In this document: positions 44,012-56,076 of the stretch, piece after piece
Layout of the letters: each line of letters opens with the position of its first letter
How positions within the stretch are numbered: position 1 is the stretch's first letter
NCBI GenBank assembly: GCA_043826565.1
Contig: JBDRPX010000008.1
Coordinates: forward strand, 17,744-81,743
Reading direction: 5' to 3'
Length of the DNA: 64,000 bases
Source of the DNA: Candidatus Omnitrophota bacterium
Lineage (GTDB): Bacteria > Omnitrophota > Gorgyraeia > B26-G9
Position numbers and translations under genes: made by a program
The notes under the pieces: model-generated
What the model was told of the DNA's origin: nothing
The model's database searches: none
The model's input: only the letters and a program-made list of their open reading frames with translations

Positions 44012-45619
44012 ATGAAAAGGAAAACTCTCACAATTCTTTTTGCGGATGTTCAGGGATATACTATTCGTACTGCCCGGCAAACACGCGAGCAGAACGAAAA
44101 ATTCATAAAAGAAATCCGTTCTTTTGTGGAAAAAAATATCCAGGAAAAAGACGGAACCCTGGTTAAATCCATGGGCGATGGATTTCTCATCACTTTTGAA
44201 TCCCCTACCGACGCGGTTGCCTGCGGACGGGAAATGCAAAGTCAAATCAAACAGCGTAATACCAACGCGCTGCACCATAATGATTACATTCGCTTTCGTA
44301 TCGGAATCAGCACCGGTGAAGTTAATGTTGATGATAACGGCGATGTATACGGAGAAGCTGTCAATATCGCTTCCCGCATCCAAAACTTTGCCAGCCCTAA
44401 TGACGTATTTCTCGCGGAAGCCACATATCTGGCGATGAATAAATCTGAAATTCAAGCCTTGGATCTCGGACCCCAGCGTTTTAAAAACATTGTCCAGGAA
44501 GTCCGGGTATATAAAGTATCTGACGGCAGTCCGGACTATGACACTCTGCTTCCGGCGCAAAAGGAATCATCAAAAAATAAAACACCTCTATTAACCGGCC
44601 TCATCATTCTAATAATCGCTGCCGGAATTATAGCTGTGCTGATCAAAAAAGAAAAACCCGAATCTTCACAATCCACCCAGGAACAGAAAAAAAACATCAG
44701 AGAACTTATGCAAATGGGGAATTATTCGGAAGTGATCAGCTTAGGTCAGAAGGAATTAAAAAAGAATCCTAACAATGCGAAACTTCATCTGTTAATCGGG
44801 GAAGCTTTTCTGCAAATCAGTGATTATAATCAGGCGGACCTGTATTTTCAGCAAGCCATTAGAATAGACCCCCTGATGCCGGCTTCATATTTTAAGCTGG
44901 CGGTAGTTTTTGAGCAAACCCATCGTTATGAAGAAGCCATCCAGACGCTTGGAGAATATATAAATAAAGAAACCCGGGAATTTGAAAAAAGAAGAGCTCT
45001 AAAAAAAATGCGCGTACTTGAACAAAAAGCCGCTCAGCGTGAAGAAAAGCAGCTAGCCCATGAACAAATATTAAGCGAACTGGAAAGGCGGGAGCAAATT
45101 CTCAGAGAAAAAGAAGAAAAAGACCGTCAGGAACGGGAAAAAGCTTTAGAAGAACGCGAGCGGGAGCTGGAAAAAGAAAGACTAAGAATAGAATTAATGA
45201 AAGCACAAAAACAGGAACAACCTGCCCCGCAAAATACTCAGCCCCAGCAAAAGCAGCAGCCGAAGCAAAAAGAAAGCCTCATATCACTTATGAATGATGG
45301 CGATTATCTAAGGCTTGTAGAATACGGCGAAGAAGCTCTAGAAGAACGGCCGGATAATGTCAAGATCCGCTTACTGGTCGGCGAAGCTTATTTTAAAATG
45401 GAAAATTATGACCGGGCAATTATGCATTTTAAAAAAGCCTCGGAAGTTAACCCGGAAAATCCAAAACCCTATCAACGGCTTTACGTTATCTACGAAAGAA
45501 AAGGCGATCTGTTCAATACCCGTAAATATTTGCAGGAATATATAGACCACGAACCCCGTAATGACCAAAGAGAACTTGCTGAAGATAAGCTGAAAAACCT
45601 GCGGGGAAAAATGTGGTAG
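44012..45619 (+). CDS. adenylate/guanylate cyclase catalytic domain - TM - TPR repeat protein
   Basis: 535 aa; LTILFADVQGYT..KSMGDGFLITF class III cyclase motifs; TM helix; two TPR blocks separated by charged coiled coil. Confidence 0.75.
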   Translation: MKRKTLTILFADVQGYTIRTARQTREQNEKFIKEIRSFVEKNIQEKDGTLVKSMGDGFLITFESPTDAVACGREMQSQIKQRNTNALHHNDYIRFRIGISTGEVNVDDNGDVYGEAVNIASRIQNFASPNDVFLAEATYLAMNKSEIQALDLGPQRFKNIVQEVRVYKVSDGSPDYDTLLPAQKESSKNKTPLLTGLIILIIAAGIIAVLIKKEKPESSQSTQEQKKNIRELMQMGNYSEVISLGQKELKKNPNNAKLHLLIGEAFLQISDYNQADLYFQQAIRIDPLMPASYFKLAVVFEQTHRYEEAIQTLGEYINKETREFEKRRALKKMRVLEQKAAQREEKQLAHEQILSELERREQILREKEEKDRQEREKALEERERELEKERLRIELMKAQKQEQPAPQNTQPQQKQQPKQKESLISLMNDGDYLRLVEYGEEALEERPDNVKIRLLVGEAYFKMENYDRAIMHFKKASEVNPENPKPYQRLYVIYERKGDLFNTRKYLQEYIDHEPRNDQRELAEDKLKNLRGKMW

Positions 45620-45719: not shown

Positions 45720-45965
45720 TTAATCTGTAAAAAATTTTTCTTTTATAATTCTCCGGCCGGTTGTAGACTTATAAAAACTCTCTTTTTGCCTAGCTTCTTT
45801 TAAAGTTGCAAAAGATTCTGTCTGAATAATGTTATATGGACGGTATGGACGAGAGGCTTTGACTCTACCGGCATTATGCATTGCTAAACGCTTAGTAATA
45901 TCATCAGCAACGCCGGTATAGGTTCGTGTTTTTCCCTTATTAAGAAGGATGTAAACATAATACAT
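45720..45965 (-). CDS. GIY-YIG nuclease family protein (small, stand-alone)
   Basis: 81 aa; YYVYILLNKGKTRTYTGVADDITKRLAMHN GIY-YIG signature. Confidence 0.65.
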   Translation of the reverse strand: MYYVYILLNKGKTRTYTGVADDITKRLAMHNAGRVKASRPYRPYNIIQTESFATLKEARQKESFYKSTTGRRIIKEKFFTD

Positions 45966-46562
45966 TGTATTATTACCTGGCGGATCCGCCTACTACATCC
46001 AGAAAAGGCAGGGAATCCAAGCATTGAGCGTTGCGAAATGCGCAGGCTCCCCGGCCGAAACGCTAAGATTTATGAGGAGGTGACTTTTTGAAATTTATTT
46101 GCAAAAGTACCGACGAATAAAGATTAAATTAGCCGAGTTTTATTCGGGTAATTACAGGAATACGACAAAAAAAGAGAAAGTAAGTTTATTTACTTTCTCT
46201 TTTTGGAGTATTACTGGCGGGTAGTCGTGGACGGTAGGCGAACCCTACAAACCCTTGAAACAAGCCTACTTATAAAACTCTACCGTAAACGTAGTATGGG
46301 AGCGCTGATATCTTTAGGGGATCCACTCGACACTACCCTGCCGTACAATAAGGGCATTTTATCACAACACCGGCAAAAATCCAGCAAAATGCCCGTTTTG
46401 ACCGCCTAAAATTAGGGAATTATATACTTGACTCCCTAACAATATGACTCGTTGATTTTTCATGGACGAGCTAATGCCCTGCTTTTAATTTGCATCCTTA
46501 TAGGTAATACTGAGATCTGACTTAATTTTGCTCTCCAATTTTTTTTAGTAGTGTCCGTTTAA

Positions 46563-47318
46563 CTATTTAGTACCGCCAAATACTGCAAAAATGCTGTACT
46601 TGTAGAAACAATCCACATCCTTGAACCCGCATTTGCTTAAAGTCTGTAGCTGATCCCAAAGACCACTTGGTTTGTCTTCAAGATTATTCTTGTATACAGA
46701 TGGGATATTGTCATATTTCCCGATTTCGCTTTCTTTCCCATTTTTTTCTAATGTTTCATTCATCCAATTTCGCCACATTTCAAATTGTATTTCTTCACTA
46801 TGGGCTGAACTTGGATGGACTGCATCAATGTTCAGGAATAGGCCACCATGCTTCAATTCTTTATAGATTTTAACGAACAATGCTGTTTTCTGCATAAAAT
46901 CAAGATGATGAATAGCATTTGAAGAAATTACTAAGTCATATTTCCGGTCTTCGGGTTGTGATGCGGAATAATCTTCAAATGTTAGATGGCGGAAGGATAT
47001 GTTGCTGTCATTACTGCCTAAAGTTGCTTTTGCCTTGTTTAGCATTTCCTCGGAAGCGTCAACGAGGTAGAAATTGTTATTGGGCGATTTGTCATAAATA
47101 CATTTTGTTATGATCCCTTCTCCGCAACCTAAGTCTAAAATGTGAAGATTGGCTATGCTCGGAAAATGAAATGCTACAATTTCAAGCAGAATGCGGATAG
47201 ATCTTTGTCTTTCTATCACAATGAAATTTGCTGAACTTGTGTAAAAATTGACAAAATCTTTGTCGTCCCACTTGAATGTTGCGTCTTTCTTCATTTTGTT
47301 TTCCTGTTTAAGTAACAT
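46563..47318 (-). CDS. class I SAM-dependent methyltransferase
   Basis: 251 aa; motif I ILDLGCGEGIIT, motif post-I D(A)SEEM; overlaps upstream gene by 28 nt. Confidence 0.7.
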   Translation of the reverse strand: MLLKQENKMKKDATFKWDDKDFVNFYTSSANFIVIERQRSIRILLEIVAFHFPSIANLHILDLGCGEGIITKCIYDKSPNNNFYLVDASEEMLNKAKATLGSNDSNISFRHLTFEDYSASQPEDRKYDLVISSNAIHHLDFMQKTALFVKIYKELKHGGLFLNIDAVHPSSAHSEEIQFEMWRNWMNETLEKNGKESEIGKYDNIPSVYKNNLEDKPSGLWDQLQTLSKCGFKDVDCFYKYSIFAVFGGTK

Positions 47319-48493
47319 TTCTTTTTGGTCATTTCTACTTCTTTTGCGCCTTCAAAGCTGAATAAATTAACTCTTTTTCCGCACCGCTTTTTTCCCTTTA
47401 GACCTTTTTTTGTTGGCAGTTTCTTTGCCAAAGCCTTAATCGTTGCGTCCGAGTGCGCTAATAAATTGCCCCGATCAAATGTCACGAAATCTGGGTGCGT
47501 TGAAATACGGTAATCCTTTGATGCATTATTCTCAATAAACTTCTTGGCATCCTTGCCCAGTAAACTGCCCTGAAGCGGCGATCGAACCCGATCAAAAATC
47601 TGATACTTTCCGGCTTCCACAACCTTTTTAAGCCACCCGCCCTTGCCTTTCTTGAGCTCAACACCCAGTTCAATAAACAATTTGAACGCCCCGTCCGGCA
47701 TTTTTATCTTCTGACCATTTACCTCAAGATCATTGCTTCGTTTCATCGGAGCCGTACCCGGGATATGGATTTTGTCATAACATTTGTAGCCAAAACCCTT
47801 ATAGTCCTTCGCCTGCTTCTTGGTCAAAGCCGTGGCTCCGTCCTCAGGCATAAATTCTTTAATAAGATCATCTATCGACAATTTGAATGTTTTGAAATCA
47901 AGCGCCGTCGCAAGAGGAACCGTGACTATCTCGCATTTGCTCAAACCCCAGCTTAATAAAATATCCTCTATCTTCGTAAATGGAGTGAAAACAACTAGAA
48001 CCTTGTCATCTTTGCAAATGTCCTTTAACCCGACGAATTTGATCAGCTTGCCATCCCCAATCTTCGGCACAAAAACAAACCCAACCCGGAAACTGTCGTA
48101 TAGCTTATACCCTATGTAAAAATACCCTTCCGGGATTTCTTGAAACTTTCCCTCAATCTTGTTAACCTGCCTGATTTTCGCAAACAAAGCCGAGAAAGAA
48201 AGTTGATACCGCCGCAGATCCGCTTCTGTTACCTCAATTGGTGCACTATCCGCTGACTCCACTGAGTATGCGCAGAATCGACTTCCAACCTTCTTGACCC
48301 GTCGCTCGTTCCCATTATCCCCCAAAGCAGACGAATAATAAGGCTCCTTCATATAGTCATACTTCATTCGGTCTAAATATTTCTGCTTGGTCAGAAAGTT
48401 GAAATCGGTCTTTGAAACACGCACCAGCTCGCTCTCGCTGAACGACGCTGTGGGAAAAGCCTCGATATTTTTTAATATGAAGTTCATCATCAC
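47291..48493 (-). CDS. hypothetical protein (400 aa, Lys-rich C-terminus)
   Basis: no recognisable motif; ATGA overlap with upstream gene 48490-49596. Confidence 0.45.
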   Translation of the reverse strand: MMMNFILKNIEAFPTASFSESELVRVSKTDFNFLTKQKYLDRMKYDYMKEPYYSSALGDNGNERRVKKVGSRFCAYSVESADSAPIEVTEADLRRYQLSFSALFAKIRQVNKIEGKFQEIPEGYFYIGYKLYDSFRVGFVFVPKIGDGKLIKFVGLKDICKDDKVLVVFTPFTKIEDILLSWGLSKCEIVTVPLATALDFKTFKLSIDDLIKEFMPEDGATALTKKQAKDYKGFGYKCYDKIHIPGTAPMKRSNDLEVNGQKIKMPDGAFKLFIELGVELKKGKGGWLKKVVEAGKYQIFDRVRSPLQGSLLGKDAKKFIENNASKDYRISTHPDFVTFDRGNLLAHSDATIKALAKKLPTKKGLKGKKRCGKRVNLFSFEGAKEVEMTKKKCYLNRKTK

Positions 48494-49596
48494 GTCAAAA
48501 GCACTCCATTGTCCCTCAAATATTTTTCAATAATTCCCTTTTCCGCTTTCTCGGGTAATTTTGTGTTCTCCGGCGGCTTAATTTCAACCGTTATCGATTT
48601 AGGCTTCTTCCCACCACGCTTTATATGGAACCGTAATTTAGCTGAAACATACTCAACGTCCTGCATAGATATCTTTAAATCAGAAAACGCCTGCCGGACA
48701 TCGCCGCAATTAATCGTTACCTTTATGACCTTTGCGCCTCTGCATTTAACCTTCACCTCTGTTAAATCAACAGCCTCAACATCGTCATTGCCGGAATAGC
48801 TGAAAGTGCCATTTTTAATAGGGTCAAGAACAACCAAGGTATTGTTAAACGTTGACTCGGCCACCTGATCCATGCCAAGGATAGCGTTCCCGAATATCTC
48901 GATATACCGTTTTTTATCAGCTTCGCTCCAACCGCCCGCATTAACACTGAGCACGCAATTCCCCGTATCAAAAACGAGCATATCCTCTCTGGCGGGGCGA
49001 AAAGACTGAATATCCACTTTCCCCTTTTCAAATATGAGATGCGTTTTCATGAAATCACCATGGGCGATTAGGACGATGTGTTTACCGTTATGCGCCCTGT
49101 ACCTGATATCACAGTGTTCGCTTTTACCGGTATCCTTAAAATACTGTTCTATGGCAGTTTTCAACTGTGCAACACGATCCTCGGCGAAGTTACAGTTGTT
49201 ATGCTCAAACTTATGGTGGCTTAATTTTTCGGAATAGACGACGTACAGATAAAAATCAAAGGCGAGTGAGAACGCTTCCTCGCTGTGAAGAAAAACCCGC
49301 ATAGCAGTTGTTTCTGAAGGTTCATCATCTTGAACCGCTATATTATACTGACGCTTTGCCTGCTCAAGATATCCTCTTGCCCGGTCAGCGATGTCATTAA
49401 TGCACTGCAACTCCTCCTCGAGATAAGATCGCTTCCCATCATCGCTGATGCCATCTAGAAAATCGTGAATATTATTTCGGTCGAAAACAAACCCATCAGG
49501 AACCGGAACGTTTTTCCGTGTGAAATACGCCTTGAGCAGGTCGCTACTAACTCCCGTGACAAATTTTTCCAGTTTAAATGATCTATGTTTTGCCAT
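48490..49596 (-). CDS. hypothetical protein (368 aa)
   Basis: no recognisable motif; first gene of three-gene overlapping operon. Confidence 0.45.
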   Translation of the reverse strand: MAKHRSFKLEKFVTGVSSDLLKAYFTRKNVPVPDGFVFDRNNIHDFLDGISDDGKRSYLEEELQCINDIADRARGYLEQAKRQYNIAVQDDEPSETTAMRVFLHSEEAFSLAFDFYLYVVYSEKLSHHKFEHNNCNFAEDRVAQLKTAIEQYFKDTGKSEHCDIRYRAHNGKHIVLIAHGDFMKTHLIFEKGKVDIQSFRPAREDMLVFDTGNCVLSVNAGGWSEADKKRYIEIFGNAILGMDQVAESTFNNTLVVLDPIKNGTFSYSGNDDVEAVDLTEVKVKCRGAKVIKVTINCGDVRQAFSDLKISMQDVEYVSAKLRFHIKRGGKKPKSITVEIKPPENTKLPEKAEKGIIEKYLRDNGVLLT

Positions 49597-49621: not shown

Positions 49622-49852
49622 TTAATGTATGCGATCCTTAGGCGGGCACGGATCCTTTCCAAAGCTGTCCTTATCCTGAATCTTACCATCACGCCCATGA
49701 ATCACAAGTTCTGACTGCTGATGCTTCGCAATTTGCCTTCCAGCGTTCTCAGCGGCGTTCTTTGTGCGATGCTCTGAGGTTAATCGAGAGTTCCCCTCGC
49801 CACGCACGCCCCATCCTTCGTCCGTCTTTACTACATGCTGATTCTTACCCAT
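49622..49852 (-). CDS. DUF2188-like small protein
   Basis: 76 aa; GWGVRGEGNSR..AENAGRQIAKHQQSELVIHGRDGKIQDKDSFGKDPCPPKD matches DUF2188 family pattern. Confidence 0.45.
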   Translation of the reverse strand: MGKNQHVVKTDEGWGVRGEGNSRLTSEHRTKNAAENAGRQIAKHQQSELVIHGRDGKIQDKDSFGKDPCPPKDRIH

Positions 49853-50307
49853 GCCACACCTCCATTTTTGCCTATAAATAAAAAAACCTTCACCGGGCAG
49901 ACTTACTCCACCAAGCGAAGGTTTTAATTATTTTAACGTGGCAGTTCCCCCTTCGAAACATACCACTCTCAATTTCAATGTATTTATACTCTAAATTTGC
50001 ATAAAAGTCAATGTTTTTCGTAATTCCTCCTGATGCACTATATTATCACAAAAACCTACTTTCTCAAACACTTAAGCGTCTCCCGTAAATCCTTCGCGGT
50101 CAACCGATCCGCCTCTTCCAACCCACACTCATGCCTCAAAAACCAATGCAACCTCATAATTCGCTTTGTTTCCTCAATCAGCTCCCTATGCCTTATGTTC
50201 CATAGCCAAGTAATCGGACTAACCATCTCGCCACCTCCTACTATAATAGACGTATAAGATGGCAAAATCTAACATAAATTTTATTAAAAAAATGCACAAA
50301 AATAAAA

Positions 50308-50352
50308 AACCTTTATCAGCCATAATTTGGCCAACAAAGGTTTTTCTTTTTT
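50308..50352. terminator. bidirectional hairpin terminator
   Basis: AAAAAACCTTTATCAGCCATAATTTGGCCAACAAAGGTTTTTCTTTTTT. Confidence 0.4.
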
Positions 50353-50516
50353 AACGTCCGGGATTTATTCCTTCAAACTCGGGACGAATTAACACTTTTT
50401 ACTATATATAGTTATATAAAAAGAATAATCAAAAGTCAAGCAATTTATGGACTTCAGTCTATTTTAATGGTAAACTGTATAAATCATAGTTTCGATTACA
50501 CTATTTAGGGGTTACC

Positions 50517-51374
50517 ATGAAATATAATCAAATAAATAAAACAATTTTTGAAATCTGCCATGACAATTCACTGAATTTTATTGCTAAGAGCACGGAGATC
50601 GAAAAGCGTCTTAACACTTGCAATGATGCAGAAATTTTGTTGCATATTGACCATGCTGGCGTTATACCCGAATGCTTTGATCACGATTCCACAGAAGAGA
50701 AAGTATTTGCAAAGTATTGTGACTCTTTACTTGCCAGAGCATTTAGAATAATCGGACTCGACGCTCATACAATTCCTGAACGAAGTGATGCGGCCGATGT
50801 AATCGCAAAGCAAGACCAACACACAATTGTCGGTGATGCAAAAGCTTTTCGTTTAAGCAGAACCGCTAAAAACCAAAAAGATTTCAAAGTTGAAGCGCTT
50901 GACAAATGGCGAAAGGGCGCTGATTACGCATGCCTAGTCTCCCCTCTATATCAATATCCTAATTCTAATAGTCAAATCTATGAACAAGCTATAAGATATA
51001 ATGTAACCTTGCTTTCATATACACATTTAGCCTTTATTATACGAAACAAAACTGCATTACAAAGGAACGATGGACTTAAAGAATTATGGGATACCCCCAA
51101 ATCCCTAACGGCAACCAAGAGTGCCTACACTTACTGGAATACTATAGATACCAAAATACTGCAACTGCTTAATAAAACATCGGCTGAGTGGAAATCTTTT
51201 ATTGACGAACAAATAAAGATTTTACCTGAGAAGGCAAAAGAACAAATTGCTTTTTGGGAAGAAGAAAAACAAAGAATCGGCGGTCTTTCCCATGATAAAG
51301 CTGTGGAAGAATTGCTGAAGGCGCTTAAAATAAACGCTAAAATTGAAATTATTAAACGAACTGCTGGGCTCTAA
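50517..51374 (+). CDS. putative restriction endonuclease (PD-(D/E)xK-like), convergent with MTase
   Basis: 285 aa; candidate D..(D/E)xK (ADV..VGDAKAF); gene ends 3 nt from the convergent DNA MTase stop. Confidence 0.35.
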   Translation: MKYNQINKTIFEICHDNSLNFIAKSTEIEKRLNTCNDAEILLHIDHAGVIPECFDHDSTEEKVFAKYCDSLLARAFRIIGLDAHTIPERSDAADVIAKQDQHTIVGDAKAFRLSRTAKNQKDFKVEALDKWRKGADYACLVSPLYQYPNSNSQIYEQAIRYNVTLLSYTHLAFIIRNKTALQRNDGLKELWDTPKSLTATKSAYTYWNTIDTKILQLLNKTSAEWKSFIDEQIKILPEKAKEQIAFWEEEKQRIGGLSHDKAVEELLKALKINAKIEIIKRTAGL

Positions 51375-51376
51375 GA

Positions 51377-53521
51377 TTAAAGCGGATCTCGATTAATCAC
51401 CTTGAATGAAGGGAAAGATTTTTTTACCATTTTTTCTACTTCTCCCAAAACCAACGAAACATTCTTCTCCCCGTCAACTGACGCACAATTAGAAATCAAT
51501 CCAACCCCTTGCGCAAATACCGCCAAAGCAACATCCTGTTCTTGCCACCCAGAATTTAGTAACGCCTTGGCATACCCACTGCAATATCCGCCAATTTTTT
51601 CTTCAATTTCAATCAATTCACCATTTACTTTTTCCGAAGTTAACTTCCTACCAACAAAAACTATGCACGTATTTATTGCTTCTGACGACATTCCCCTCGG
51701 ACGATGTTTTCGTTCGATACTAAGTGGCTGAACGCTTGTAATAAACAAATTGCTACTTCTAAAGGCTCGTATTAATGCTTCCCACCCCTTAAAAGAACTA
51801 TGCGAGTATATAAAAGATATAATGCCATCATTTTTCAAAACCCTTCCGGCCTCCGATAAAGCCATTGTTAATTGCTCACAATACGATTCATGAGCTTTAA
51901 CTGCATCTCCATTCCTAAAAGTTGATGCGACTAGCTCATGATTGGAATCCGTGGCTTGTTCTTTAAATAAATCTGGTTCAATTGCTTTAAGTAACATTCT
52001 TTTCCAACAGTAAAAAAAATCAGCTAGCGCTGTGTAATACACATTATCATAGTAAGGAGGATCGGTTACGATAGCATCAAAGAAGTCGTTCTGAAATGAA
52101 AGTTTTTGTGCCCTGCCTTTTTCAACTTTAACCGAAGTAAGAAACTGCGGGATAGAACCAACGCCCTCAACGATTCGGTCGAGCTTTTTCCATAAATTGG
52201 CAGGACCGTTCATAACCGGGTCAGTTTCAACATAATCCCATAGCATCGGCACCCCGGGTCCACAGAAAGCACGGCCAACTTGTTCATTTTGCGAAATCCA
52301 CATGGATAACCGGCAATTCCAATCTACCAACTGATCAATCAAGCTGGATAAATTTCCGATAACAAATTTCGCTTCAACAGAAGATTTCGATTTACAGAGA
52401 AATTCATACTCATCAATTAAAGACTCGATGAGCATCACCAAAACCAATCTCTGTCTTGCATTTAAAAAATCCGCATAAGTTTCCATCCCGTATCCCGCCG
52501 GATTAACTATACCTGACCATTTGGGCAAAGGTATCAACGGCAAGGAAGCATTTATTGCTTCCAACGTTTCCTCTTCAATAATCTTTAGCGTTTCTGGGTC
52601 GGGAATAATATTCTTACCTACCGCAACAAACTCTTTTCCTTTTGTCTTTTTAAGTTGTGCAATAGCAAGAATCTCATCTGTAGTGTCAGCGATGCTTATT
52701 TTATCAGTAATATGCTCACAGGAAGGACACTTCATCTTCCCAGATCGCCCAATCCAATTAGAAGTAAACTCATATAACTCATCAACCTCTTTTATCTCAA
52801 CTTTTTGGCTATCTTTTCCATTTACTAGTGTCATCCCTAGTTTCTTACCATGCTTCTGCGACAACCAAGGGCGCTTCATGAGATAATATTTATATTTACA
52901 CTTCGGGCACTCGATAGAATAACTCCAAATATAGCCAAAAGTTGTAGCGCCATCCTCATCAATCTGATCCCGCAACGGAAAGAGTTTGCCAGTTTTCTTG
53001 GTAAGCGCATTAAGCACCCGCTCACCTGATTCTTTAATTAAAACAATTCGCTGAGTAGGTTTAATTTCTTGTGAATAAACCAAATTACATTTTTGAATAA
53101 AAATCGATAACTCATTAGAATCGACGGAATAGGATTCAGCGCCAATATTAGCCGCCTCAAAAGGGATCGTCCCCCCACCAGCAAACATGTCCAAAACTTT
53201 AGGGGTTTCAACGTATTGAGATGACAATATTTCTTGAGCATCTTTGATTGAATTGTGGCCGAGGTTTGACAAAATATTTAATGCCCGATCATCTGTACTT
53301 TTGCATAAAGCGGCAAAAGCTAACATACGCATTGAAGCATGCGGTCTTCTCGCCCACCACACATGAACAGTATGAGAAGTTTCCCCTCTCCTATATCTCT
53401 CTGCATGCCCCGCAATTGATGCTTCATAATAAAAAAGACCGTTATCAATAAGTCGATGAGGCTTTTTGAGCGGCGATGCATCTAATTGCGGACTGGCATG
53501 ACTTCCCAATATTATTGACAT
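51377..53521 (-). CDS. DNA methyltransferase (N6-adenine/N4-cytosine type, DPPY) with N-terminal extension and Zn-ribbon insert
   Basis: 714 aa; motif I MFAGGGTIPFEAA, motif IV DPPYYDNVYY, CPKC..CPSC zinc ribbon. Confidence 0.7.
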   Translation of the reverse strand: MSIILGSHASPQLDASPLKKPHRLIDNGLFYYEASIAGHAERYRRGETSHTVHVWWARRPHASMRMLAFAALCKSTDDRALNILSNLGHNSIKDAQEILSSQYVETPKVLDMFAGGGTIPFEAANIGAESYSVDSNELSIFIQKCNLVYSQEIKPTQRIVLIKESGERVLNALTKKTGKLFPLRDQIDEDGATTFGYIWSYSIECPKCKYKYYLMKRPWLSQKHGKKLGMTLVNGKDSQKVEIKEVDELYEFTSNWIGRSGKMKCPSCEHITDKISIADTTDEILAIAQLKKTKGKEFVAVGKNIIPDPETLKIIEEETLEAINASLPLIPLPKWSGIVNPAGYGMETYADFLNARQRLVLVMLIESLIDEYEFLCKSKSSVEAKFVIGNLSSLIDQLVDWNCRLSMWISQNEQVGRAFCGPGVPMLWDYVETDPVMNGPANLWKKLDRIVEGVGSIPQFLTSVKVEKGRAQKLSFQNDFFDAIVTDPPYYDNVYYTALADFFYCWKRMLLKAIEPDLFKEQATDSNHELVASTFRNGDAVKAHESYCEQLTMALSEAGRVLKNDGIISFIYSHSSFKGWEALIRAFRSSNLFITSVQPLSIERKHRPRGMSSEAINTCIVFVGRKLTSEKVNGELIEIEEKIGGYCSGYAKALLNSGWQEQDVALAVFAQGVGLISNCASVDGEKNVSLVLGEVEKMVKKSFPSFKVINRDPL

Positions 53522-53793: not shown

Positions 53794-53897
53794 CCCCTTT
53801 GTATTTTATTAAACCACAAAAAGGAAAAATAGTCAAGCTTAAATTAAGCTTGACTAAATTAAGATCGACTATTAGATGCCGTTAATTTAAAAACTTT

Positions 53898-54212
53898 TTA
53901 TTTTATTGCATAGAAATATGTTCTAATCAGTTCCGCCACAATCTTCTGCTTCCCTCCAATATGCCAATCAGTATTCTGTTCCGGATCCAGCTTCGATTTG
54001 TAGTCATAAATCGTAAACACAAGGCCGTTGATCGTGCCAACCCACTCGACCTTAATCTTACCGTCCTGTGATGATCCAAGATGGGGTTCACCAAACACAA
54101 AAACGACATCATCGTAGCACGTCCCTTCCGGCAAATACCCCTGACAGCCGGTGCCATCATGCGATACGCCGCCCATCTCAACTATTAAATCAAGCTCAGC
54201 TTTTACTTTCAT
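53898..54212 (-). CDS. phage hypothetical protein
   Basis: start at MKVKAELD; no motif. Confidence 0.3.
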   Translation of the reverse strand: MKVKAELDLIVEMGGVSHDGTGCQGYLPEGTCYDDVVFVFGEPHLGSSQDGKIKVEWVGTINGLVFTIYDYKSKLDPEQNTDWHIGGKQKIVAELIRTYFYAIK

Positions 54213-54709: not shown

Positions 54710-54933
54710 TGCTGTTCAATTATTATTGACCATGTGCCTAACGGCATAACCCGCTGAATCTCCCGCAACCGCAATTTCACGGCCGGAAGATGATCCTTCA
54801 TCCTCCCGGATACCGGAATATTTTCAACATATATCTCATGCCCTTCATTACGCACGCTGATATACCGGCTTTTTTTAGCCATCATGTTTTCACGAACCAT
54901 ACAATACCCTCCTTTCGAGGGTAAGTAGACCAT
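54634..54933 (-). CDS. phage hypothetical protein
   Basis: 99 aa ORF overlapping neighbour in another frame. Confidence 0.25.
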   Translation of the reverse strand: MVYLPSKGGYCMVRENMMAKKSRYISVRNEGHEIYVENIPVSGRMKDHLPAVKLRLREIQRVMPLGTWSIIIEQQWKEKGITHFQMLDVSTGKLQESVL

Positions 54934-54964
54934 AGGGTTTAATAGTTGGCAAGGCGTTTCTTCA

Positions 54965-55210
54965 TTATTTTTTGATCAAAGCTTTTATTGCCAAAGGAAC
55001 GTCTTTTGCCTCTTTAACAATCGTATCGATTTCCTCTTTGGTTAGCTTTTTATCCGCAAACGCCATCACAATTGCGCTGAGCAATTCGCTAATTTCCTTT
55101 AAAACACTTAACGCCTTTGAAAGCACCAACCATACCGCACCGATCCCGACAACTGCCGTAATAATCTGTGGGATGTTACCTGAAACATAATCCATCAAAA
55201 AATCCATCAT
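54965..55210 (-). CDS. holin-like small membrane protein
   Basis: 81 aa; one or two TM helices then charged C-terminus (KKLTKEEIDTIVKEAKD). Confidence 0.35.
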   Translation of the reverse strand: MMDFLMDYVSGNIPQIITAVVGIGAVWLVLSKALSVLKEISELLSAIVMAFADKKLTKEEIDTIVKEAKDVPLAIKALIKK

Positions 55211-55217
55211 ACACCTC

Positions 55218-55481
55218 CTAATCTAATGAGTTAAATTTCTGCACCAGTTTTTTATACCGAGATTCAAGCTGTAAAAATTCCCGCTGATTTCCCAGCCCTT
55301 GCACATGCGCTATTTTGAGCATATCCTCAACGACAAAGAAAATATCTTCCGCAATATCCGTTGCCTGCTTAATACGTTTAATCCGCACAAGCGCATACCG
55401 TTTCTGTTGCTGATCAGCGTTATTCCATTCCCGGAGAAACCCGAATATTTCTTTTATTGCCCCGCTAATATCACCCATCAC
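55218..55481 (-). CDS. phage hypothetical protein
   Basis: 87 aa ORF. Confidence 0.3.
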   Translation of the reverse strand: MMGDISGAIKEIFGFLREWNNADQQQKRYALVRIKRIKQATDIAEDIFFVVEDMLKIAHVQGLGNQREFLQLESRYKKLVQKFNSLD

Positions 55482-55986
55482 TTCTCACCTTGTCCGCTAT
55501 TAAAAACCCCGCCCCAAAACAAACTCCAATCATTAACTCCACCCACTGCCAATTCATTCCCTGATAATGACAGAGCCATACTGCAAAACACCAGACAGCC
55601 GCAAACAACGCCATAATAGCCAAGGTTCTCTTTTTTAAAACCGGATACCAGCTCACTCCGTACAAGCACCCAAGCAACGCAATCATTGCCCAGTTATTCG
55701 CATCAACAATTTCCGTATAACCTAAATGCAACGGCGCTGATAAGCAGAAAAACAACAGCCAGTTCCATCCTAAAGACGAAGCGATCACAAAAGGCATTGC
55801 GTACCTTCGTAATAACAGCCATCCCCCGCCGCCCAAGCTGTAAAGCAAGGCAATCAAGCAAAACAAAACCACGATTCTTCTCTGCTTCCAAACTTCAATT
55901 AACCGGTTCTTCATTTTTCGCCTGTATCTTTCCGTCTTTATATTCCACTTCCCACAACTCCAGCCCGATATCCGACTGAATCGCAA
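55471..55986 (-). CDS. phage-encoded polytopic membrane protein
   Basis: 171 aa, 4-5 TM helices. Confidence 0.35.
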   Translation of the reverse strand: MRFSRISGWSCGKWNIKTERYRRKMKNRLIEVWKQRRIVVLFCLIALLYSLGGGGWLLLRRYAMPFVIASSLGWNWLLFFCLSAPLHLGYTEIVDANNWAMIALLGCLYGVSWYPVLKKRTLAIMALFAAVWCFAVWLCHYQGMNWQWVELMIGVCFGAGFLIADKVRSDG

Positions 55987-56076
55987 TTTCTCCTCTTGAG
56001 TTCAGATCATTTACATCCGGCTCGTAATTGCATTTCACAGCAACCTTACCTTCTTGATTCACCACAAACCAATCCA

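What the first reader, a model, noticed from the sequence alone, without database searches (positions are those of the whole stretch)
46563..49596. Translationally coupled operon of two unknown proteins plus a SAM-methyltransferase in a defence-island context
Genes 48490-49596 (368 aa) and 47291-48493 (400 aa, Lys-rich tail) overlap by ATGA, and the second overlaps a class I SAM-MTase (46563-47318) by 28 nt. None of the three has Walker or nuclease motifs I can recognise. The operon sits between a stand-alone GIY-YIG nuclease and a DUF2188/R-M cluster, adjacent to a prophage. This is the typical neighbourhood of uncharacterised anti-phage or modification systems, making it a candidate novel system.
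Basis: inference. Interest (0 to 1): 0.6.

Follow-up and report, generated by a model that had tools for sequence, protein, structure and literature searches.

The report
Prophage-borne DNA-clamp-like protein pair
The two unknown genes are a real, widely conserved pair carried by prophages and other mobile elements of uncultivated bacteria. One resembles the DNA-ring proteins RdgC and lambda RexA and the other looks like a DNA-binding partner, while the methyltransferase next to them is unrelated cargo.

Summary
The three ORFs exist and are coupled as described, but the trio is not a unit. No methyltransferase (MTase) homologue follows the pair in any of 39 non-redundant related loci with room. 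DNA homology to the closest relatives stops at residue ~360 of B and resumes about 1 kb later. So the MTase and B's Lys-rich tail form a locus-specific cassette.

The conserved core is the A+B pair. B follows A in 45 of 47 loci, always with overlapping coding frames. DUF2188 (PADLOC candidate PDC-S16) precedes the pair in about 30% of loci. A conserved small convergent ORF follows it in about 40%.

A (368 aa; no Pfam, NCBIfam or PADLOC hit; 782 clusters at 50% identity) models with an RdgC/CENP-N-like fold, the fold class reported for lambda RexA and the YejK N-domain. B is basic and has no membrane segment. Its C-terminal domain looks like an OmpR-type winged helix; this is shown only in a remote homologue.

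The pair sits in the accessory arm of a lambda-like prophage between two variable cargo slots. In remote clades it lies directly behind a CI/LexA-type repressor, as cI-rexA-rexB does in lambda.

Best reading (confidence 0.4): a Rex-like, lysogen-expressed DNA-binding module with no enzyme or channel effector. The function is inferred, not shown.

The parts
49983..50011 (-). Sigma-70-like promoter candidate (TTGACT, 17 nt, TATAAA) upstream of DUF2188
   Evidence: Read directly from the sequence. The automatic scan did not list it because its rule requires T at position 6 of the -10 hexamer. Inference only.
49876..49966 (-). Leader with two hairpins between the promoter candidate and DUF2188. 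The second hairpin is a strong terminator-like stem followed by a U-run.
   Evidence: RNA fold -40.4 kcal/mol, z = -4.7 against shuffles. The DNA up to 49957 is conserved in related loci. Its role is unknown (attenuator or small RNA).
49622..49852 (-). DUF2188 protein (76 aa), a frequent but not obligatory companion of the pair
   Evidence: Pfam PF09954 3e-23, PADLOC PDC-S16 4.6e-35, phrog_3220. Found within 1.5 kb upstream of A in 14 of 48 loci.
48490..49596 (-). Gene A (368 aa): core component, predicted RdgC/CENP-N-like (RexA/YejK class) DNA-clamp fold
   Evidence: No family hit. AF2 pLDDT 81, pTM 0.70. Foldseek PDB: CENP-N 5.8e-6, RdgC 4e-4, probability 0.98-1.0. Foldseek BFVD: phage RdgC proteins. 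782 clusters in the HMM search.
47414..48493 (-). Gene B core (residues 1-360): obligate partner of A. Basic, no membrane segment, three domains, C-terminal OmpR-like winged helix (inferred).
   Evidence: Adjacent to A and overlapping it in 45 of 47 loci. AF2 pLDDT 86. pI 9.3, C-terminal domain net +11, maximum KD19 hydropathy 1.24. Weak Foldseek hits to BaeR and KdpE. The homologous partner in L029 carries Pfam Trans_reg_C at the matching position.
47291..47413 (-). Locus-specific Lys-rich extension of B (residues ~361-400), created at the cassette junction
   Evidence: Absent from all other B homologues. pLDDT 41-56. DNA homology with L018/L026 ends at 47413.
46563..47318 (-). Class I SAM methyltransferase (251 aa, or 243 aa from the ATG at 47294): variable cargo, not part of the conserved module
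   Evidence: Methyltransf_25 3e-18, phrog_4752 1e-22. Nearest PDB entry 3dtn 2.4e-28, then small-molecule or uncharacterised MTases; no (D/N/S)PP(Y/F) motif. Found downstream of A-B in 0 of 39 related loci.
46203..46409 (+). Small conserved convergent ORF (conserved block 46215-46406, ~62 codons, pI ~10) marking the far end of the cargo slot
   Evidence: 73-98% nucleotide identity in loci where A is only ~50% identical at the protein level. Third-codon-position variability 48/64 against 30/64 and 24/64. Found downstream in 15 of 35 loci. No Pfam or PHROG match.
46165..46204 (.). AT-rich perfect hairpin flanked by A- and T-runs, a likely bidirectional terminator closing the operon and the small ORF region
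   Evidence: Read from the sequence. Picked up only as spurious miRNA-like hairpin matches in Rfam. Not listed by the terminator scan, which requires at least 3 G-C pairs.
50517..53521 (.). Context: type II restriction-modification (R-M) cargo in the slot upstream of DUF2188-A-B. HindIII-like restriction enzyme 50517-51374 (+) and DUF1156-type DNA MTase 51377-53521 (-).
   Evidence: Pfam RE_HindIII 8e-85; PADLOC MTase_II 5e-206. The same position holds other R-M types or other cargo in related prophages.

Best explanation
The functional unit is a two-gene, translationally coupled module (A+B) carried by temperate phages, transposons and plasmid-like elements of uncultivated phyla such as Omnitrophota and Elusimicrobiota. 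It often has a DUF2188 gene in front. The SAM methyltransferase is a separate cargo cassette dropped into a variable slot behind B.

Shown:
- The A+B pairing is conserved.
- The pair is carried on mobile elements.
- A models with an RdgC/CENP-N-like fold.
- B is basic and soluble.
- Neither protein has a recognisable enzymatic or membrane domain.

Inferred:
- A forms a dimeric DNA clamp or ring that binds DNA without sequence specificity, as RdgC, RexA and YejK do.
- B docks on A through its family-specific N-terminal domain, the part kept in remote partners.
- B contacts DNA with an OmpR-like winged helix.
- The pair is expressed from the prophage in the lysogen and acts at the DNA level. It would occlude or silence incoming or replicating phage DNA (superinfection exclusion), bias the prophage's own lysis-lysogeny or RecA-dependent induction switch, or both.

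In short, it would be a functional analogue of lambda Rex in which the RexB membrane channel is replaced by a DNA-binding partner.
For: Conservation of the pair:
- B follows A with overlapping frames in 45 of 47 non-redundant loci; the two exceptions are remote homologues that still have a partner gene.
- A and B identities fall together across loci.

A's fold:
- AF2 pLDDT 81.
- Foldseek against PDB gives CENP-N, RdgC and Iml3.
- Foldseek against BFVD gives several phage 'recombination-associated protein RdgC' entries.
- Published work places RexA, the YejK N-domain, RdgC and CENP-N/Chl4-Iml3 in one structural class (PMC11077077, PMC11229321).
- A YejK-domain protein was validated in a defence unit (PMC13092281).

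B:
- pI 9.3, no hydrophobic segment.
- The partner in L029 has Pfam Trans_reg_C above its cutoff and is homologous to B (hhalign 97.5%).
- The partner in L028 is homologous at 99.5% and carries an extra HTH.

Context:
- Lambda-like tail module at 54-64 kb.
- Four IMG/VR viral contigs carry A.
- R-M systems are the commonest neighbours.
- In L029 and L033 a LexA_DNA_bind + Peptidase_S24 repressor sits directly upstream of A, next to a large serine recombinase. This mirrors cI-rexA-rexB in lambda.
- In L032 the pair diverges from an XRE-type repressor.
Against: - There is no functional data of any kind.
- A has no detectable sequence relationship to RexA (hhalign probability 0.3%), and RexA itself was not among the top Foldseek hits.
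- TM-scores to RdgC and CENP-N are low (0.2-0.5), so the similarity may cover only part of the protein.
- The winged-helix call for the window's own B is weak. None of 81 close homologues hits Pfam Trans_reg_C, the best Foldseek hit has E = 0.06, and hhalign against the OmpR and PhoB domains is not significant.
- B is not a membrane protein, so the Rex mechanism of membrane depolarisation cannot apply.
- No effector is evident.
- In the window's prophage lineage the pair is constant between two variable slots. That fits a phage core or regulatory gene as well as a defence gene.
- Some loci sit in metal-efflux operons, which says nothing about defence.
Confidence: 0.4

Rival explanations
1. Element-maintenance or regulatory pair with no anti-phage role. 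A and B would act as a nucleoid-associated protein and transcription factor of the mobile element. Possible jobs are silencing the element's genes, tuning RecA-dependent induction (as RdgC inhibits RecA and LexA cleavage), or controlling expression of whatever cargo lies downstream, in the manner of CapW/BrxR or CapH/CapP regulators.
For: - Both proteins look like DNA binders without an effector.
- The pair is constant while cargo on both sides varies.
- The gene after B is almost always tightly coupled to B whatever it encodes.
- The position behind S24/LexA-type repressors fits a role in the switch.
- RdgC is reported to reduce RecA-dependent LexA cleavage (cited in PMC11077077).
- Plasmid- and transposon-borne copies exist.
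Against: - The downstream cargo includes genes with no need for a dedicated regulator (ClC channel, CDF pump), and five loci have an empty slot.
- Known defence-associated regulators are small single proteins or HTH+peptidase pairs, not a ~370 + ~360 aa pair.
- The frequent R-M neighbours and DUF2188/PDC-S16 point towards defence islands.
Confidence: 0.3
2. Toxin-antitoxin or abortive-infection pair. One of the two proteins would be toxic when released from the other, for example by coating DNA, and the coupling would keep their ratio fixed.
For: - Strictly conserved two-gene arrangement with overlapping frames.
- Spread by horizontal transfer across phyla on mobile elements.
- The companion DUF2188 has been linked to HicB-like antitoxin folds (PMC13621843).
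Against: - Neither protein has a toxin-like domain; there is no nuclease, kinase, pore or NADase signal.
- Both proteins are much larger than typical type II pairs.
- DUF2188 is present in only about 30% of loci.
Confidence: 0.1
3. One reading: A, B and the SAM methyltransferase form one three-gene modification or defence system.
For: The three genes overlap and are probably co-transcribed in this locus. The MTase gives a partial hit to PADLOC mad2 (3e-16).
Against: - No related locus has the MTase: 0 of 39.
- DNA homology breakpoints show a ~1 kb cassette.
- The mad2 hit covers only the generic SAM-binding core, and five unrelated neighbour proteins give it too.
- The enzyme has no (D/N/S)PP(Y/F) motif, and its nearest solved relatives are small-molecule or uncharacterised MTases.
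Confidence: 0.03
4. Recombination or cassette-capture helper. The RdgC-like protein and its partner would promote or police exchange of cargo cassettes at the two flanking slots of the prophage.
For: - The pair sits exactly between two variable slots.
- The distal slot is bounded by a conserved small ORF that occurs in tandem copies, all starting at the same codon.
- Near-identical A (99%) occurs with B at only 82-93% identity, which shows recombination inside the module.
- RdgC is a recombination-associated protein.
Against: - Neither A nor B has a recombinase, nuclease or integrase domain.
- The pair also occurs where no such slots or small ORF exist.
- Cargo exchange is explained more simply by homologous recombination between conserved flanks.
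Confidence: 0.05

Closest known systems
Bacteriophage lambda RexA/RexB exclusion system
   Same: - A two-gene module carried by a prophage.
- In remote clades it lies directly downstream of a CI/LexA-type repressor next to the recombinase, as cI-rexA-rexB does.
- The first protein is soluble and belongs to the RdgC-like structural class that RexA is reported to share (PMC11077077).
   Different: - No sequence similarity to RexA.
- A is about 90 aa longer.
- The partner B is a basic soluble protein with a predicted winged helix, not a four-pass membrane channel.
- In the window the pair is in the tail-distal accessory arm, not the immunity region.
RdgC recombination-associated DNA-binding ring (PF04381), including phage-encoded RdgC
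   Same: Among the top structural matches in both libraries (2owl 4e-4; phage JS26, FoX4, Enc34 and phiAxp-2 RdgC). Similar size class.
   Different: No Pfam RdgC hit. Low TM-scores (0.2-0.25). RdgC works alone, whereas A always has a partner gene.
YejK/NdpA nucleoid-associated clamp, including the YejK-domain protein validated in a defence unit by DefensePredictor
   Same: The YejK N-domain is reported to resemble RdgC and CENP-N, the same structures that A hits (PMC11229321). Plasmids carry NdpA-like proteins (own knowledge). A YejK-domain protein is now implicated in defence (PMC13092281).
   Different: No NA37 Pfam hit. YejK was not among the top 50 Foldseek hits. No direct comparison with the validated system was possible.
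OmpR/PhoB-type winged-helix DNA-binding domain (PF00486)
   Same: - A remote B homologue passes the Pfam cutoff at the matching position.
- B's helix and strand order and the motifs 'MPDxxFxLFxEL' and 'FIENxxSKxYRIS' fit the domain pattern (reading).
- Weak Foldseek hits to BaeR and KdpE span the alpha/beta domain plus the winged helix.
   Different: - No Pfam hit in the window's B or in 80 close homologues.
- No phospho-acceptor receiver signature was found.
- B has an extra family-specific N-terminal domain.
PADLOC candidate PDC-S16 (DUF2188 single-gene defence candidate) and the 'DUF2188 + two hypothetical proteins' operons under CapH/CapP control
   Same: The upstream gene is a full-length PDC-S16 match. 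A published operon type has the same composition: DUF2188 plus two hypothetical proteins (bioRxiv 10.1101/2022.04.27.489752).
   Different: PDC-S16 is only a prediction. Whether the published hypothetical proteins are A/B homologues could not be checked. DUF2188 accompanies A-B in only about 30% of loci.

Membership tests
Lambda RexAB exclusion system | RexA sequence family (Pfam RexA) | tested here: not met
   No Pfam hit for A at E <= 0.01. hhalign of the A profile against lambda RexA gives probability 0.3%.
Lambda RexAB exclusion system | RexA-type two-domain fold related to RdgC | tested here: inconclusive
Lambda RexAB exclusion system | Partner is a polytopic membrane protein (RexB) | tested here: not met
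   B has no hydrophobic segment (maximum 19-residue Kyte-Doolittle mean 1.24) and pI 9.3. The AF2 model is globular.
Lambda RexAB exclusion system | Encoded in the prophage immunity region, co-directional with the CI repressor | tested here: inconclusive
   Met in the remote homologue loci L029 and L033. Not met in the window, where the pair lies beyond the tail genes.
Lambda RexAB exclusion system | Excludes superinfecting phage | not testable with these tools
   Needs plaque assays.
RdgC (PF04381) | Sequence membership | tested here: not met
   No Pfam or NCBIfam hit. The PDB profile search found nothing.
RdgC (PF04381) | RdgC-like fold | tested here: met
   Foldseek 2owl_B E = 4e-4, probability 0.98. 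Phage RdgC entries E 1e-3 to 9e-3. TM-scores are low, so the match is at fold level only.
RdgC (PF04381) | Ring-shaped dimer that binds DNA | not testable with these tools
   No multimer prediction or biochemistry was available.
OmpR/PhoB winged helix (PF00486) for B | Pfam Trans_reg_C match | tested here: inconclusive
   Window B and 80 close homologues give no hit. The homologous L029 partner scores 28.2 bits against a cutoff of 26.2. hhalign against OmpR and PhoB is not significant.
Known anti-phage systems (PADLOC-DB 2.0) | HMM match of A or B to any system protein | tested here: not met
   A gives only a chance-level 0.0016 hit. B gives none.
PADLOC PDC-S16 / DUF2188 | Full-length HMM match of the upstream 76-aa protein | tested here: met
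   PDLC04942 4.6e-35; PF09954 3.2e-23.
Restriction-modification DNA methyltransferase (for the 251-aa MTase) | Catalytic (D/N/S)PP(Y/F) motif of N6/N4 DNA MTases, or a DNA MTase family match | tested here: not met
   No such motif. Pfam hits are generic class I families. The nearest PDB entries are small-molecule or uncharacterised MTases.
Three-gene A-B-MTase system (as proposed) | Conserved co-occurrence of all three genes | tested here: not met
   0 of 39 non-redundant loci. Cassette breakpoints at 47413 and 46410.

The most novel reading that the evidence does not exclude
A+B, with DUF2188 and perhaps the small convergent ORF as accessories, is a previously unrecognised superinfection-exclusion system of temperate phages in uncultivated phyla that has no effector enzyme. 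It would be a Rex analogue in which an RdgC/RexA-fold DNA clamp works with a winged-helix partner and blocks invading DNA directly instead of opening a membrane channel. Its conserved flanks would also define slots where prophages collect defence cargo.
Probability: 0.25. Interest if true: 0.7.

Novelty: new variant of a known kind. Interest (0 to 1): 0.5.

Why it matters
- If A+B excludes phages or tunes lysogeny, Rex-like biology would extend to a new protein pair that is common in poorly studied phyla. The Rex mechanism itself is still debated.
- It would be another case of an RdgC/YejK/CENP-N-class DNA clamp used in conflicts between mobile elements. That class was linked to defence only recently.
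- The pair has no model in Pfam, NCBIfam or PADLOC, so current annotation and defence-finding pipelines miss about 780 clusters.
- The locus also shows how cargo such as R-M systems, an MTase or a hydrolase is swapped in and out between conserved prophage genes. Here that swapping misled a sequence-only reading into calling a three-gene system.

Tried and rejected
Searches on A and B that gave nothing useful:
- Pfam, NCBIfam, PADLOC and PHROGs. The only result was a weak full-length hit of A to phrog_37634, of unknown function.
- PDB sequence-profile searches.
- tblastn of A against GenBank phages and PLSDB plasmids, and of the MTase against phages.
- hhalign of A against lambda RexA, and of B against the OmpR and PhoB C-terminal domains: not significant.
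- Pfam scan of all 81 B homologues: no Trans_reg_C hit.

The conserved 195-nt block at 46213-46414:
- It was first treated as a structured RNA. Rfam found only noise, and RNAalifold gave -6.7 kcal/mol with almost no covariation.
- Codon-position analysis then showed it is coding on the opposite strand, so the RNA idea was dropped.
- The idea that it is the 3' end of a long host gene used as an attachment site was also dropped. No longer protein with this C-terminus exists in the database.

Other negatives:
- A repeat search around the operon gave only short chance matches.
- No tRNA or tmRNA in the window.
Full report
**Observation.** On the minus strand the window carries three ORFs: A at 48490-49596 (368 aa), B at 47291-48493 (400 aa) and a methyltransferase (MTase) at 46563-47318 (251 aa). 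The A/B junction reads ...ACG-TGA with GTG-ATG-ATG overlapping it. The overlap is therefore GTGA (4 nt) with a GTG start. With the ATG start used in the NCBI record of the 100%-identical protein P0094 (399 aa, Candidatus Omnitrophota) it is TGATG (1 nt). The 28-nt B/MTase overlap applies only to the longest MTase ORF. An internal ATG at 47294, preceded by AGGA, gives a true ATGA overlap and a 243-aa product, and that start agrees better with the start of the nearest solved homologue.

**The genes are real and uncharacterised.** A has 93 homologues in the word-indexed search, nearly all 365-371 aa and all 'hypothetical'. They come from Omnitrophota, Elusimicrobiota, Marinimicrobia, Margulisiibacteriota and others. 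An exhaustive HMM search finds 782 clusters at 50% identity (263 at E <= 1e-10), almost all 360-400 aa. B has 134 homologues, typically 355-377 aa. Neither protein hits Pfam, NCBIfam or PADLOC. A has only a weak full-length hit to phrog_37634, of unknown function. Profile searches against PDB sequences find nothing, and tblastn finds no copy in GenBank phages or PLSDB plasmids.

**What is conserved.** I collected 91 related loci from genomes, IMG/VR and metagenomes, 74 of them non-redundant by A sequence.
- A B homologue starts within a few bases of A's stop in 45 of 47 loci with full-length A and at least 1.1 kb downstream.
- The two exceptions are remote A homologues that still have an overlapping partner gene. 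One of these partners shares B's N-terminal domain (hhalign 91.9%).
- The frames overlap in every case, by 1-4 nt in close relatives and 8-53 nt in remote ones.
- Identities of A and B fall together across loci.
- DUF2188 lies within 1.5 kb upstream in 14 of 48 loci.
- An MTase homologue lies within 3 kb downstream in 0 of 39 loci.

**The methyltransferase is a cassette.** Nucleotide homology between the window and its closest relatives (L018, L026; 90% identity) runs from 49596 down to 47413, which is B residue ~360. It then stops and resumes at 46410-46218 at 97% identity. The ~1 kb in between holds B's last ~40 residues and the MTase. In L013, L018 and L026 the same slot holds a 279-aa protein plus an MBL-fold hydrolase, and L018 and L026 add a 418-aa protein after them. 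Other loci hold an HNH protein, a secreted protein followed by a 300-aa protein that looks like a CD-NTase by eye (not scanned individually), a chloride (ClC) channel or a cation-efflux (CDF) pump. In five loci the slot is empty. B's Lys-rich tail is absent from all other homologues and is modelled at pLDDT 41-56. It is read-through created at the junction, not a domain. The MTase itself is a class I SAM enzyme (Methyltransf_25 and related families; phrog_4752). Its nearest solved relatives are MM_2633 (3dtn, 2.4e-28) and small-molecule C- and N-methyltransferases. It has no (D/N/S)PP(Y/F) motif. The partial PADLOC mad2 hit covers only the SAM-binding core, and several unrelated neighbour proteins give the same hit.

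**Protein A.** The AlphaFold model (74-sequence alignment; pLDDT 81, pTM 0.70) has an N-terminal helical part followed by two beta-rich units and a C-terminal helix. Foldseek against the PDB returns CENP-N (7pkn_N 5.8e-6; 6eqt, 6c0w, 7qoo), E. coli RdgC (2owl 4e-4, probability 0.98) and, further down, Iml3. Against BFVD it returns several phage proteins annotated 'recombination-associated protein RdgC' and uncharacterised 276-314-aa phage proteins. TM-scores are low (0.2-0.5), so the claim is at fold level. These relatives are the ones reported for lambda RexA (RdgC, Iml3/Chl4; PMC11077077) and for the YejK N-domain (RdgC, CENP-N; PMC11229321). All of these proteins bind DNA as rings or clamps. 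A YejK-domain protein was recently validated in a defence unit (PMC13092281). A has no detectable sequence link to RexA.

**Protein B.** The model (pLDDT 86) shows three parts: an N-terminal domain (~1-120), an alpha/beta domain (~124-200) and a C-terminal domain (~240-360) that holds nearly all the invariant residues (Y236, C238, G286, R329, S331, H333, P334). B is basic (pI 9.3; C-terminal domain net +11) and has no hydrophobic segment. Foldseek gives nothing significant. The best hits are the OmpR-family regulators BaeR and KdpE, aligned over about 215 columns (E 0.06-0.5). Three further observations bear on the C-terminal domain:
- The partner of a remote A homologue (L029) is homologous to B (hhalign 97.5%) and passes the Pfam cutoff for Trans_reg_C at the position that aligns with B's 'IKMPDxAFxLFxEL'.
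- Another remote partner (L028, hhalign 99.5%) aligns over the whole B core and adds a C-terminal HTH_11/24.
- The window's B and 80 close homologues do not hit Trans_reg_C, and hhalign against the OmpR and PhoB domains is not significant.

The winged-helix call is therefore an inference of moderate strength. The N-terminal domain is the part shared by the most divergent partners, which suggests it is the contact with A.

**Context.**
- In the window's prophage lineage the order is tail genes, small phage genes, variable slot 1, DUF2188, A, B, variable slot 2, then a conserved small convergent ORF.
- Slot 1 holds a HindIII-type R-M system here. Elsewhere it holds AccI-type or other type II R-M, type III R-M, DUF4268, glycosyltransferases, or AcrB plus patatin.
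- Over all loci, DNA MTases, restriction enzymes and DUF2188 are the commonest neighbours.
- Four IMG/VR viral contigs of 42-44 kb carry A.
- In remote clades the pair lies in the regulatory region of temperate elements. In L029 and L033 a LexA_DNA_bind + Peptidase_S24 repressor is directly upstream and co-directional (overlapping A in L033), next to DUF2924 and a large serine recombinase. In L032 the pair diverges from an XRE-type repressor and precedes replication genes. This mirrors cI-rexA-rexB in lambda.
- Other copies sit in IS-flanked metal-efflux operons or beside a Rep_1 gene or next to ISL3 transposases.
- The near-identity of A across phyla (80-93%) indicates horizontal transfer.

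**Interpretation.** The data show a conserved, translationally coupled pair on mobile elements that has no enzymatic or membrane domain. One protein belongs to the RdgC/RexA/YejK/CENP-N structural class and the other is basic with a probable winged helix. I infer that the two form a DNA-bound complex expressed by the prophage in the lysogen. The complex would act directly on DNA, either to exclude superinfecting phages or to bias the element's own switch. That makes it a functional analogue of Rex without the RexB channel (confidence 0.4).

The main rival is a purely element-internal regulatory or nucleoid-associated role (0.3). Its support is that the pair stays constant between variable slots and that whatever gene follows B is tightly coupled to it. 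A toxin-antitoxin reading (0.1) and a cassette-capture role (0.05) are not excluded. The three-gene modification system is essentially refuted (0.03).

**Side observations.**
- The 195-nt block at 46213-46414 is the best-conserved DNA of the region (73-98% identity where A is only ~50% identical at the protein level). It is not an Rfam family and shows no covariation.
- The block keeps one open frame on the plus strand in all copies, with third-position variability of 48/64 against 30/64 and 24/64. It therefore encodes a ~62-residue basic peptide.
- All copies begin at the same codon with unrelated sequence upstream, and tandem copies occur 0.7-3.8 kb apart. No longer parent protein exists in the database. 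Whether this is a small gene or the footprint of site-specific cassette insertion remains open.
- Between a promoter-like site and DUF2188 lies a strongly folded terminator-like leader (z = -4.7).

**Verdict.** The finding is a new, unmodelled protein pair with a plausible but untested Rex-like role, and I score its interest as moderate.

Noticed in passing
window 46203-46409 (+); also L003 10476-10655, L008 16821-17003 and 18528-18686, L010 12213-12398, L013 14361-14549, L020 10511-10699 and 11282-11395, L022 5913-6101, L025 2817-3002, L067/L068 two copies: A small conserved ORF of ~62 codons (WRVVVDGRRTLQ...LYRKRSMGALISLG...PYNKGILSQ, pI ~10) runs convergent to the operon. It shows codon-position periodicity, every copy starts at the same codon with unrelated sequence upstream, and tandem copies bracket cargo cassettes. 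No family match and no longer parent protein were found. It may be a small gene or the footprint of site-specific cassette insertion.
   Followed up: partly
window 49876-50011 (-): A promoter-like TTGACT-17-TATAAA site is followed by two hairpins just before DUF2188, the second a strong terminator-like stem with a U-run (fold z = -4.7). The DNA is conserved in related loci up to 49957. It could be an attenuator or a ~95-nt small RNA.
   Followed up: partly
window 50293-50454; L008 5435-5581 and 9559-9678: A hairpin-rich ~150-nt intergenic block, including the terminator at 50346-50304, is conserved in many related prophages. In L008 two copies flank the R-M cargo. In the window a 24-nt inverted repeat (50292-50315 / 53888-53911) brackets the HindIII-type R-M cassette.
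   Followed up: no
L008/L009 11104-13755: B is fused in frame to the next gene, which starts with a signal-peptide-like sequence, giving an 883-aa ORF. This is another sign that cargo junctions sit exactly at B's 3' end.
   Followed up: no
L038 and L039 (metagenome contigs): A that is 99% identical to the window's A is paired with B at only 82% or 93% identity, which shows recombination within the A-B module.
   Followed up: no
L001 2319-11877; L028 1-4849: A-B copies, one close and one remote homologue, sit inside or next to RND/CDF metal-efflux operons flanked by rve transposases or a Rep_1 gene. In L001 the pair is wedged between a P-II gene and a cation-efflux gene.
   Followed up: no
L016 12116-14496: In a prophage with the same tail fibre region (85% identical to window 54887-58077), slot 2 holds a secreted protein, a 300-aa protein that looks like a CD-NTase by eye, and a 216-aa hydrophobic protein. 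This may be a CBASS-like cargo. The proteins were not confirmed with individual profile scans.
   Followed up: no
window 50056-50226 (-): A 56-aa ORF with a strong AGGAGGTG ribosome-binding site lies between the R-M cassette and the DUF2188 promoter region. It is not conserved in related loci and has no family match.
   Followed up: partly
window 45720-45965 (-): The 81-aa GIY-YIG gene lies beyond the small ORF and the terminator hairpin, outside the block conserved with related prophages. It probably belongs to the host flank rather than to the island.
   Followed up: partly
window 44012-45619 (+): A 535-aa protein combines an adenylate/guanylate cyclase catalytic domain, a predicted membrane segment, TPR repeats and a long Glu/Lys/Gln-rich coiled region. 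It is unrelated to the finding.
   Followed up: no
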